From the NCBI RefSeq assembly GCF_988242995.1, contig NZ_OZ547043.1: a DNA stretch of 64,000 nt; one strand, written 5' to 3'. The position numbers and the translations under genes are program-made. Below, piece after piece: positions 36,855-37,789 of the stretch (positions are counted from its first letter, which is position 1; every line of letters starts with the position of its first letter). A model generated the notes under the pieces. That model searched no databases. It was not told the DNA's origin and saw only the letters and a list, made by a program, of their open reading frames with translations.

Positions 36855-37789
36855 AAATTTCATCCTCTGAAAAGTGAATACTGAGTAGCGTTTAAGCGAC
36901 CTTAGCTTTGCTGCAACATCAGCCCACAGGCACCAGACCAGGGGATTCATCCTGAAGAGACAGCGCAAGTGTATTGTGTTCACCGCTCATCAAAGACATC
37001 ATGATGAAATGATGATATTCCGCATAAGAAAGAGGCATTTTTTAAACGCAGTGCGCTGAAGTGTGGTTGGATAAAAAAGTCAATCTATTCAGAAAATACG
37101 GGCGTATTCTTTTCTTTCGACATTGAAGCCGTCGGAAAAATAAAATGATTTACATAATCATTTCTGATGAATATCTTCTGCTCACATAAAAATCACACAA
37201 TAACATTGAGATCGCAGATTGTTTTACTTTTACAGCTTTCGTCCCCCCATTGTTGGGCAAATATTGGTAGAGTCAGAGCACGAAAGTTAATACCACGTTC
37301 TCACAGCTCCTCCAACAGCACGGCAAGATGCCGCATACTGCGCCCCAGTCGGTTCAGTTTCCATACTACCAGTACGTCCCCTACCGATAATGTCCTGAGC
37401 CGTTTGTTCTGTCCGGGTCTGCTGCCACGGTTATGCGCTGAAGTGGTAACTCTGAGCACGCAGTTCATCAGTCAGGCATGGTGCACCGTAACGCTGTTAT
37501 TGCTGGGTAAGCTCAAAAAATTTTCAGGCAGCTAAGGAAAGTTGAACCAGACATTAGATGAAATATTTCAACCAATTACAGCACCAATTCAGTCACTGCT
37601 AGCCCACCAAATAAATCAAGGGGTTACATGAAAACGTAGCCCCTTTTTCTTTGGTAGTGACACTAAAATGGATGTAGTGTGAAGAATAATCCCATTTACT
37701 TAATCAATAATACATATTGTTTCAATCTACGTTATTATCTCTTCGTAAAAATAGCCATTTATTTATCATTGAAAACTACTTTTAGAACT

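What the first reader, a model, noticed from the sequence alone, without database searches (positions are those of the whole stretch)
36855..37789. ~930 bp between ypjA and the ypjC-like gene with no convincing ORF
Only short ORFs occur here (37167-37535 and 37679-37876, neither with a recognisable product). K-12 carries pinH and ypjB in this interval as I recall. This may be decayed or deleted sequence, or the promoter region for ypjA.
Basis: inference. Interest (0 to 1): 0.25.

Follow-up and report, generated by a model that had tools for sequence, protein, structure and literature searches.

The report
ypjA upstream spacer with dead invertase
This 935-base gap between two E. coli genes is an ordinary, already annotated spacer holding the upstream control region of the ypjA adhesin gene, a dead middle piece of a DNA-invertase gene (the K-12 pseudogene pinH) and a terminator hairpin, with no hidden gene.

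Summary
Window 36855-37789 is 935 bp between the ypjA start and the ypjCB stop, and it has no intact conserved gene.

Nothing is deleted. The interval aligns base for base, without indels, to the K-12 ypjA-ypjB spacer at 95-96% identity. ypjB is not missing: it is the 3' half of the fused 464-aa ypjCB ORF.

The interval has four parts:
1. **36855-37234:** ypjA's own upstream block. It was co-duplicated with the gene; a paralogous copy sits at the minE-ymgJ locus.
2. **37235-37270:** a 36-bp junction of unknown origin.
3. **37271-37432 (-):** an internal fragment of a Gin/Pin-type serine invertase, equal to K-12 pinH. It lacks the catalytic N-terminus and the DNA-binding C-terminus, carries an in-frame TGA, and evolves neutrally.
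4. **37433-37789:** spacer with a conserved hairpin and T-tract at 37618-37655.

The 122-aa, 65-aa and 39-aa ORFs show no coding signature.

The one small addition is three conserved islands among seven strains: the leader 36855-37049, a box at 37150-37203, and the hairpin. They have 4-5% variable columns against 15-22% elsewhere, which suggests regulatory constraint. Neither a promoter nor an RNA structure could be shown.

Verdict: already known, low interest.

The parts
32286..36854 (-). ypjA (adhesin-like autotransporter YpjA/EhaD), the left flanking gene. Start codon at 36852-36854, with AGAGGA 8 nt upstream.
36855..37049 (-). Conserved proximal leader of ypjA: 195 nt immediately upstream of the ATG. 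5.1% of columns vary among 7 diverse strains, and it is 95% identical to the paralogous locus.
   Evidence: Fisher p 3e-6 against the rest of the interval, and 5e-9 against ypjA third codon positions.
36919..37038 (-). 39-aa ORF that PGAP annotates as a hypothetical protein (WP_001131441). Probably not coding.
   Evidence: All 8 observed changes are nonsynonymous (my count from the alignment). The ATG is lost in strain 2013C-3492 and is GTG in the paralog. No Pfam hit.
37050..37234 (-). Distal part of the co-duplicated ypjA upstream block; homology to the minE-ymgJ locus ends at 37234. It contains an almost invariant 54-bp box at 37150-37203.
37117..37146 (+). Sigma-70-like promoter match TCGACA-18-TAAAAT (10/12), pointing away from ypjA. 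It is conserved in the paralogous locus, where it faces ymgI-ymgG-ymgD.
   Evidence: Consensus match only.
37235..37270 (.). 36-bp junction of unknown origin between the duplicated block and the invertase fragment.
37271..37432 (-). pinH remnant: an internal fragment of a Gin/Pin-type serine DNA invertase, matching Gin residues 38 to about 91 of 193 (35 of 57 aligned positions identical). In-frame TGA at 37301-37303, where K-12 has TGC.
37167..37535 (+). 122-aa ORF antisense to the pinH fragment. It stays open through the stop in 6 of 7 strains; the seventh has a 1-nt length change near the 3' end and reads past the stop. It shows no coding signature.
   Evidence: pN/pS is 0.71, against 0.76 and 0.79 in the other two + frames.
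37618..37655 (.). 10-bp GC-rich hairpin (37618-37645) followed by TTTTTCTTTGG on the + strand. It lies 145 nt downstream of the ypjCB stop, and it is invariant apart from two loop-side positions while its flanks vary.
37679..37876 (+). 65-aa ORF antisense to the 3' end of ypjCB. No family match; regarded as spurious.
37790..39184 (-). ypjCB, the right flanking gene: one 464-aa ORF with DUF5507 (residues 1-160) and DUF5508 (218-464). It equals K-12 ypjC plus ypjB.

Best explanation
The interval is a composite, non-coding spacer of the ssrA-ileY variable region of E. coli and the positional orthologue of the K-12 ypjA-pinH-ypjB spacer. Read in the direction of ypjA transcription (minus strand) it contains four things. 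(a) The 3' untranslated end of ypjCB, with a hairpin terminator. (b) A roughly 160-bp internal fragment of a Gin/Pin-family serine DNA invertase gene (pinH). It has lost the catalytic-serine N-terminus and the whole dimerisation helix and HTH C-terminus, carries stop codons, and drifts neutrally, so it cannot make a recombinase. (c) A 36-bp junction. (d) The 380-bp native upstream region of ypjA. This region belongs to a 4.96-kb unit (window 32276-37234) that exists twice in E. coli. Its proximal 195 nt and a 54-bp distal box are under sequence constraint, most probably as the 5' UTR and regulatory DNA of the autotransporter gene and of a divergent promoter. Shown: collinearity with K-12, the invertase homology and its limits, the duplication boundary, the conservation pattern, and the lack of coding signal. 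Inferred: that the conserved islands are regulatory and that the hairpin terminates transcription.
For: Collinear, indel-free alignment with K-12, 95-96% identity. The K-12 annotation places the pinH pseudogene at the equivalent of window 37193-37432. Pfam Resolvase positions 47-100 of 145, E 1.7e-11. PDB Gin invertase residues 38-94, E 6e-16. Nucleotide similarity to phage DNA invertase genes is confined to window 37280-37421. RefSeq labels the fragment 'missing N-terminus and C-terminus' in six strains. pinH-frame pN/pS is 1.42. An interval-length match (at least 80% of the query) is found in 3002 of 5426 complete E. coli genomes; all 34 sampled full-length rows had the same gene neighbours. 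The paralogous block sits at the minE-ymgJ locus and is contiguous with an intact ypjA paralog in ETEC6334. Conserved islands. The hairpin is conserved while its flanks vary.
Against: No sigma-70-like promoter was detected on the ypjA strand. No transcription-start or 3'-end data were found for this region. The leader shows no thermodynamic or covariation support for RNA structure, so its constraint has no mechanism yet. Low variability in the leader could partly reflect recombination history rather than selection. The origin of the 36-bp junction and of 37433-37617 is unknown.
Confidence: 0.85

Rival explanations
1. The conserved 195-nt leader, with or without the 54-bp box, is a discrete cis-regulatory RNA or regulator-binding module specific to YpjA-type autotransporters. 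It would control translation or transcription of ypjA, for example through the two AGGAUGA motifs, one of which overlaps the Shine-Dalgarno sequence.
For: Variable columns: 5.1% in the leader against 15-22% elsewhere, and 28.6% at ypjA third positions. Identity between paralogs is 95% in the leader against 81-89% in the adjacent coding sequence. The paralog-specific differences are fixed between the loci in the copies compared, which argues against recent gene conversion.
Against: Folding z-score is +0.44. None of 61 predicted pairs shows a compensatory change, and the covariation term is unfavourable. No Rfam family matches. The leader 22-mer was not found in any species representative other than E. 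coli-derived contigs, so there is no deeper comparative support.
Confidence: 0.3
2. A non-coding + strand transcript of about 490 nt starts at the TCGACA-18-TAAAAT promoter (start near 37153), runs antisense through the pinH fragment, and ends at the 37618-37645 hairpin, whose conserved T-tract is on the + strand.
For: The promoter-like site scores 10/12 and is conserved in the paralog, where it faces ymgI-ymgG-ymgD. The T-tract on the + strand is invariant, whereas the sequence following the hairpin on the minus strand varies and is not T-rich in two of the seven strains. The 54-bp box next to the promoter is nearly invariant.
Against: These are consensus matches only; the number of promoter-like sites found (2) is below the shuffle mean of 3.4. 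No expression data were found. The body of the putative transcript is among the most variable parts of the interval.
Confidence: 0.2
3. A real small protein is encoded here: the PGAP-annotated 39-aa ORF (36919-37038, -) acting as a leader peptide, or the 122-aa ORF (37167-37535, +).
For: The 39-aa ORF is annotated in RefSeq and present in both paralogous loci. The 122-aa ORF stays open in 7 divergent strains, 6 of them through the stop codon, despite 8-13% divergence in part of it.
Against: 39-aa ORF: all 8 observed substitutions are nonsynonymous, the start codon is lost in one strain, and pN/pS is 2.9 on tiny counts. 122-aa ORF: pN/pS of 0.71 cannot be told apart from the two other + frames at 0.76 and 0.79, and 24 of 122 residues differ from K-12. 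Neither has a Pfam match.
Confidence: 0.06
4. The locus is, or recently was, a Hin-like invertible promoter switch in which the invertase gene sits upstream of, and co-oriented with, the adhesin gene it phase-varies.
For: The gene order invertase-then-surface-protein, on one strand, resembles hin-fljB (from my knowledge of the Hin system). The invertase fragment is of the Gin/Pin/Hin family.
Against: Only residues 38 to about 91 remain; there is no catalytic serine region and no DNA-binding domain. No inverted repeat longer than 21 nt at 76% flanks any segment, and nothing resembles a 26-bp crossover site. All 34 sampled full-length matches are single collinear pieces with the same neighbours. 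The ypjA upstream block is shared with a locus that has no invertase, so the juxtaposition looks secondary.
Confidence: 0.03

Closest known systems
E. coli K-12 pinH pseudogene (b2648) and the ypjA-pinH-ypjB spacer
   Same: Same position, same neighbours, same length, and an indel-free alignment at 95-96% identity. The invertase fragment has the same limits.
   Different: The window allele has an extra in-frame TGA at 37301-37303 where K-12 has TGC, and lacks the TAA that K-12 and five other strains carry just upstream of the fragment. The pinH part is only 87% identical to K-12. The neighbouring ypjCB is one ORF here but split into ypjB and ypjC in K-12.
Gin/Pin/Hin/Cin (Din-family) serine DNA invertases, e.g. 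phage Mu Gin (PDB 3UJ3, 4M6F)
   Same: The fragment aligns to Gin residues 38-94, with 35 of 57 positions identical, including the conserved GD.LVVWKLDRLGRS and ERGINF motifs. It is 78-82% identical at nucleotide level to invertase genes of Escherichia phages, including records named phage P2.
   Different: Not a gene. It lacks about 37 N-terminal residues, including the catalytic serine, and about 100 C-terminal residues (E-helix and HTH). It has stop codons, drifts neutrally, and has no crossover sites nearby.
The ymgJ / 39-aa ORF / autotransporter (K-12 ycgH-type) locus next to minCDE
   Same: 350-380 bp upstream block at 88-90% identity, 95% in the proximal 195 nt, followed by a YpjA/EhaD-type autotransporter that is 87-96% identical over the aligned parts.
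   Different: There the block abuts ymgI-ymgG-ymgD instead of an invertase fragment. In the nine distinct sampled strains with a truncated copy, such as strain 042, the autotransporter lacks its 5' part from 29 bp upstream of the ATG.
Intrinsic (bidirectional) terminators between convergent or tandem genes
   Same: A 10-bp GC-rich stem, an 8-nt loop, a T-run on one side and an A-run on the other; conserved while the flanks vary.
   Different: The function is untested. The good T-tract is on the strand opposite to the only annotated upstream gene (ypjCB).

Membership tests
Serine recombinase / Din-family DNA invertase (functional gene) | Homology to the resolvase/invertase N-terminal catalytic domain | tested here: met
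   Partial only. Pfam PF00239 positions 47-100 of 145, E 1.7e-11. Gin residues 38-94, E 6e-16.
Serine recombinase / Din-family DNA invertase (functional gene) | N-terminal segment with the catalytic serine (about residue 9-10) | tested here: not met
   Adding the upstream translation did not extend the Pfam match beyond profile position 41. Nucleotide similarity to phage invertase genes stops at window 37421. RefSeq labels it 'missing N-terminus'.
Serine recombinase / Din-family DNA invertase (functional gene) | C-terminal E-helix and helix-turn-helix DNA-binding domain | tested here: not met
   Homology ends at about Gin residue 91, window about 37271. The downstream sequence is the junction and then the ypjA upstream block.
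Serine recombinase / Din-family DNA invertase (functional gene) | Uninterrupted reading frame under purifying selection | tested here: not met
   In-frame TGA in the window and TAA in six other strains. pN/pS is 1.42.
Invertible DNA switch (Hin/Gin type) | A pair of inverted roughly 26-bp crossover sites flanking the invertible segment | tested here: not met
   The best inverted repeats are 16-21 nt at 75-81% complementarity, at unrelated places. All 34 sampled full-length matches are single collinear pieces.
Orthologue of K-12 pinH-containing spacer | Same flanking genes and collinear sequence | tested here: met
Sigma-70 promoter of ypjA | -35 and -10 hexamers with 16-18 nt spacing on the minus strand upstream of ypjA | tested here: not met
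   No minus-strand site reached 9/12 within 36700-38000. Weaker or non-sigma-70 promoters are not excluded.
Intrinsic terminator | GC-rich hairpin followed by a T-run | tested here: met
   37618-37645 plus TTTTTCTTTGG on the + strand, conserved in 7 strains. Termination itself cannot be tested here.
Known RNA families (Rfam 15) | Covariance-model score at or above the gathering threshold | tested here: not met
   Only a sub-threshold sraA match: 28.4 bits against 56, E 0.23, on the + strand at 37082-37172. Nothing in the interval at gathering thresholds.
Small protein gene (39-aa ORF; YmgJ-like) | Codon-level conservation and a conserved start codon | tested here: not met
   8 of 8 changes are nonsynonymous, and the ATG is lost in one strain. 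The YmgJ frame is closed at codon 12.

The most novel reading that the evidence does not exclude
The nearly invariant 195-nt leader (36855-37049) and the 54-bp box (37150-37203), shared by ypjA and its paralog at the ymgJ locus, form a dedicated cis-regulatory module. It could be a 5'-UTR element or regulator-binding region, possibly coupled to a divergent promoter, that keeps YpjA-type autotransporter adhesins silent or conditionally expressed.
Probability: 0.3. Interest if true: 0.3.

Novelty: already known. Interest (0 to 1): 0.1.

Why it matters
It matters little. The result stops the interval from being read as a deletion or as a hiding place for a gene, and it corrects the idea that ypjB is absent. 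Two modest uses follow. First, the invertase fragment marks the mosaic, horizontally assembled nature of the ssrA-ileY region. Second, the unusually conserved ypjA leader, also kept at a second locus, is a defined target for anyone asking why YpjA/EhaD-type adhesins are cryptic in laboratory E. coli.

Tried and rejected
**Fossil invertible switch.** No crossover-like inverted repeats. The invertase is an internal fragment only. The ypjA leader also occurs at a locus with no invertase.

**Rfam sraA hit at 37082-37172 (+).** 28 bits against a gathering score of 56, E 0.23. Treated as chance.

**12-bp perfect direct repeat TGCGCTGAAGTG** at 37052-37063 and 37434-37445. About 0.1 such repeats are expected by chance in 1.8 kb (my estimate), and the second copy matches only 10 of 12 in K-12. 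Treated as chance.

**Protein P0012** (116 aa, with an intact Pin-like N-terminus fused to the pinH tail). It sits on a 1050-bp metagenome scaffold that is K-12-like downstream of the fragment's 5' edge and unrelated to the window or K-12 upstream. I regard it as a probable assembly chimera or a recombinant with another pin gene, not evidence for an intact pinH.

**RpoS genomic-SELEX peak 'ypjA < < ileY' at 2783272** (PMC5493296). Judged by the listed neighbouring peaks, the coordinates appear to be in the older K-12 numbering. That would put the peak upstream of ypjC, outside this interval. This is my inference.

**Transcription-start and 3'-end datasets.** No ypjA, pinH, ypjB or ymgJ entries in the supplements of PMC7815308 or PMC6131387. 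The Cappable-seq GTF (PMC4782308) is stored truncated, so I did not search it.

**Genome-contig scan with a 22-mer from the leader.** Only three short E. coli-derived contigs inside non-E. coli assemblies, so no outgroup for covariation.

**RNA structure of the leader.** Not supported.

Full report
**What is there.** Window 36855-37789 lies between the start codon of ypjA (minus strand, ATG at 36852-36854) and the stop codon of a 464-aa minus-strand ORF (37790-39184). The best database match is E. coli strain C4, at 99.8-100% identity. There RefSeq annotates, in order: ypjA; a 39-aa hypothetical protein (window 36919-37038, -); a 'recombinase family protein, incomplete' (window 37304-37468, -); and ypjCB.

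**Comparison with K-12.** In MG1655 the order is ypjA, pinH (pseudogene), ypjB, ypjC, ileY. The window interval aligns with the K-12 ypjA-ypjB spacer from end to end without a single indel (96% over the slightly larger stretch; 95.0% over the interval itself). Nothing has been deleted. ypjB is not in the interval in either strain. K-12 ypjB (DUF5508) and ypjC (DUF5507) are two pieces of one gene, and the window ORF 37790-39184 carries both domains in one frame. The window ORF stops 8 codons before the K-12 YpjB stop. PGAP flags the near-identical C4 gene as frameshifted.

**The invertase remnant.**
- The minus-strand translation of 37271-37432 matches the Pfam Resolvase N-terminal domain at profile positions 47-100 of 145, E 1.7e-11.
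- It aligns to residues 38-94 of phage Mu Gin invertase (PDB 3UJ3/4M6F), E 6e-16, with 35 of 57 positions identical by my count.
- Adding the upstream translation does not extend the match past profile position 41.
- At nucleotide level, similarity to DNA invertase genes of Escherichia phages (78-82%) is confined to window 37280-37421.
- The remnant is therefore an internal fragment. It has no catalytic-serine N-terminus, no E-helix and no HTH domain. This agrees with the RefSeq note 'missing N-terminus and C-terminus' in six other strains.
- The window allele has an in-frame TGA at 37301-37303 where K-12 has TGC. Six other strains have a TAA just upstream of the fragment.
- Among seven strains the pinH frame has pN/pS 1.42, which means neutral drift.
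- A database search found only E. coli fragments of 52-127 aa.
- One 116-aa protein has an intact Pin-like N-terminus, but it sits on a 1050-bp metagenome scaffold whose upstream half is unrelated to this locus. I treat it as a chimera or a recombinant.

**The ypjA upstream block and its paralog.**
- Window 36884-37234 has a second copy, at 88-90% identity, in nearly all E. coli genomes. It lies next to minCDE, in the stretch annotated ymgJ plus a 39-aa hypothetical ORF plus an autotransporter.
- In strain 042, and in the other sampled strains of that type, that autotransporter is truncated from 29 bp upstream of its ATG.
- In ETEC6334 it is intact and annotated YpjA/EhaD. There, homology to the window runs continuously from 37234 into the coding sequence and, in blocks of 87.6-96% identity, to 32276, which is 10 bp beyond the ypjA stop.
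- The unit 32276-37234, meaning the gene plus 380 bp upstream, therefore exists twice. Its upstream edge lies 36 bp from the point where invertase homology ends.
- This fits the invertase gene having been truncated when the unit was placed next to it, or the reverse. Without an outgroup the direction is not resolved.
- The YmgJ reading frame of the paralog is closed in the window at codon 12.

**Conservation pattern.** I aligned the window with K-12 and five strains chosen from across the identity range.

| Segment | Variable columns |
|---|---|
| Leader 36855-37049 | 5.1% |
| Box 37150-37203 | 3.7% |
| Hairpin and T-tract 37618-37655 | 5.3% |
| Other parts of the interval | 15-22% |
| Flanking ypjA coding sequence | 19% |
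| Flanking ypjCB coding sequence | 16% |
| ypjA third codon positions | 28.6% |

The leader differs from the rest of the interval at Fisher p 3e-6, and from ypjA third positions at p 5e-9. Between the two paralogous loci the leader is 95% identical, against 81-89% for the adjacent coding sequence. The differences are locus-specific in the copies compared, which argues against recent gene conversion.

The conservation is at nucleotide level, not codon level. In the 39-aa ORF all eight observed changes are nonsynonymous, and one strain has lost the ATG. RNA structure is not supported: the folding z-score is +0.44, and none of 61 predicted pairs shows a compensatory change. No Rfam family matches.

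**Signals.**
- No sigma-70-like promoter is found on the ypjA strand.
- On the + strand, TCGACA-18-TAAAAT (37117-37146, 10/12) points away from ypjA. It is conserved in the paralog, where it faces ymgI-ymgG-ymgD.
- The hairpin at 37618-37645 lies 145 nt downstream of the ypjCB stop. Its T-run is on the + strand and is invariant, whereas the sequence following it on the minus strand varies.
- A + strand RNA of about 490 nt, antisense to pinH, is therefore conceivable but not shown.
- The 122-aa + ORF stays open through the stop in six of the seven strains. The seventh, CE0032f, has a 1-nt length change near the 3' end and reads past the stop. Its pN/pS of 0.71 equals that of the other + frames (0.76 and 0.79), and 24 of 122 residues differ from K-12. 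I regard it as non-coding.

**Distribution.** A match covering at least 80% of the interval is present in 3002 of 5426 complete E. coli genomes. All 34 full-length rows in the sampled listing have the same neighbours. An exact-word scan of one genome per species found the leader only in three short contigs of E. coli origin inside other assemblies. The whole ssrA-ileY region is unusually divergent between strains, at roughly 80-99% identity per 100 bp against K-12 and lower in part of ypjCB. Its GC content is 32-47% from 36800 to 40800.

**Verdict.** This is an ordinary spacer that is already annotated in K-12 and RefSeq. 'Decayed' is right, 'deleted' is wrong, and 'promoter region for ypjA' is plausible but unproven. 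The only mildly new points are:
- the pinH remnant is truncated at both ends;
- ypjA's upstream 380 bp form part of a duplicated unit;
- three short conserved islands suggest regulatory constraint.

Noticed in passing
window 20007-32125: An island of about 11.8 kb is integrated at the 3' end of ssrA (tmRNA at 20007-20369). It is bounded by a 15-bp direct repeat, CCGCCAGCTCCACCA, at 20355-20369 and 32111-32125. It carries a tyrosine integrase (20521-21753), isrK/C4 antisense RNA matches (27547-27832) and a 777-aa primase-helicase (29283-31616; Zn-ribbon, Toprim, D5_N) in DNA of 60-65% GC. This looks like a P4-like satellite prophage sitting where K-12 has CP4-57.
   Followed up: partly
window 39941-40016 (-): ARAGORN calls this tRNA 'tRNA-Met (CAT)'. 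The K-12 orthologue is annotated ileY, tRNA-Ile(CAU), so the anticodon-based call is misleading.
   Followed up: no
window 37790-39184 (-): ypjCB is a single 464-aa ORF here with DUF5507 plus DUF5508, but is split into ypjB and ypjC in K-12. It ends 8 codons earlier than K-12 YpjB. The middle of the gene (window about 38500-38700) is only 37-48% alignable to K-12.
   Followed up: partly
window 40576-42828 (+): An intact 750-aa ORF, annotated as an alpha-amylase family glycosyl hydrolase in strain C4, at the position where K-12 has the ygaQ pseudogene.
   Followed up: no
L003 3657-4350 and L004 2548-6379 (minE-ymgJ locus of strains 042 and ETEC6334): The ypjA paralog next to minCDE is intact in ETEC6334. 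In strain 042 it is reduced to a C-terminal beta-barrel fragment fused 29 bp upstream of the former ATG. The annotated small gene ymgJ lies inside the shared leader, and its frame is not conserved at the ypjA locus, which casts doubt on ymgJ as a gene.
   Followed up: partly
L012, L013, L014: Assemblies labelled Terrisporobacter mayombei, an uncultured Clostridiales MAG and a Collinsella MAG contain contigs 91-99% identical to E. coli ypjA or ymgJ-locus DNA. This is probable contamination or mis-binning.
   Followed up: partly
L005 (ENA metagenome scaffold, 1050 bp): The scaffold encodes a 116-aa protein with an intact Pin-like N-terminus joined to the truncated pinH tail and the K-12-type ypjA leader. 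Its upstream half is unrelated to this locus. It is either an assembly chimera or a natural recombinant between pinH and another pin gene.
   Followed up: partly
window 32253-32280: A strong hairpin with a T-run, AAAGCCCACAGATGTGGGCTTTTT, lies just past the ypjA stop codon. The end of the ypjA duplication unit (32276) falls inside it.
   Followed up: no
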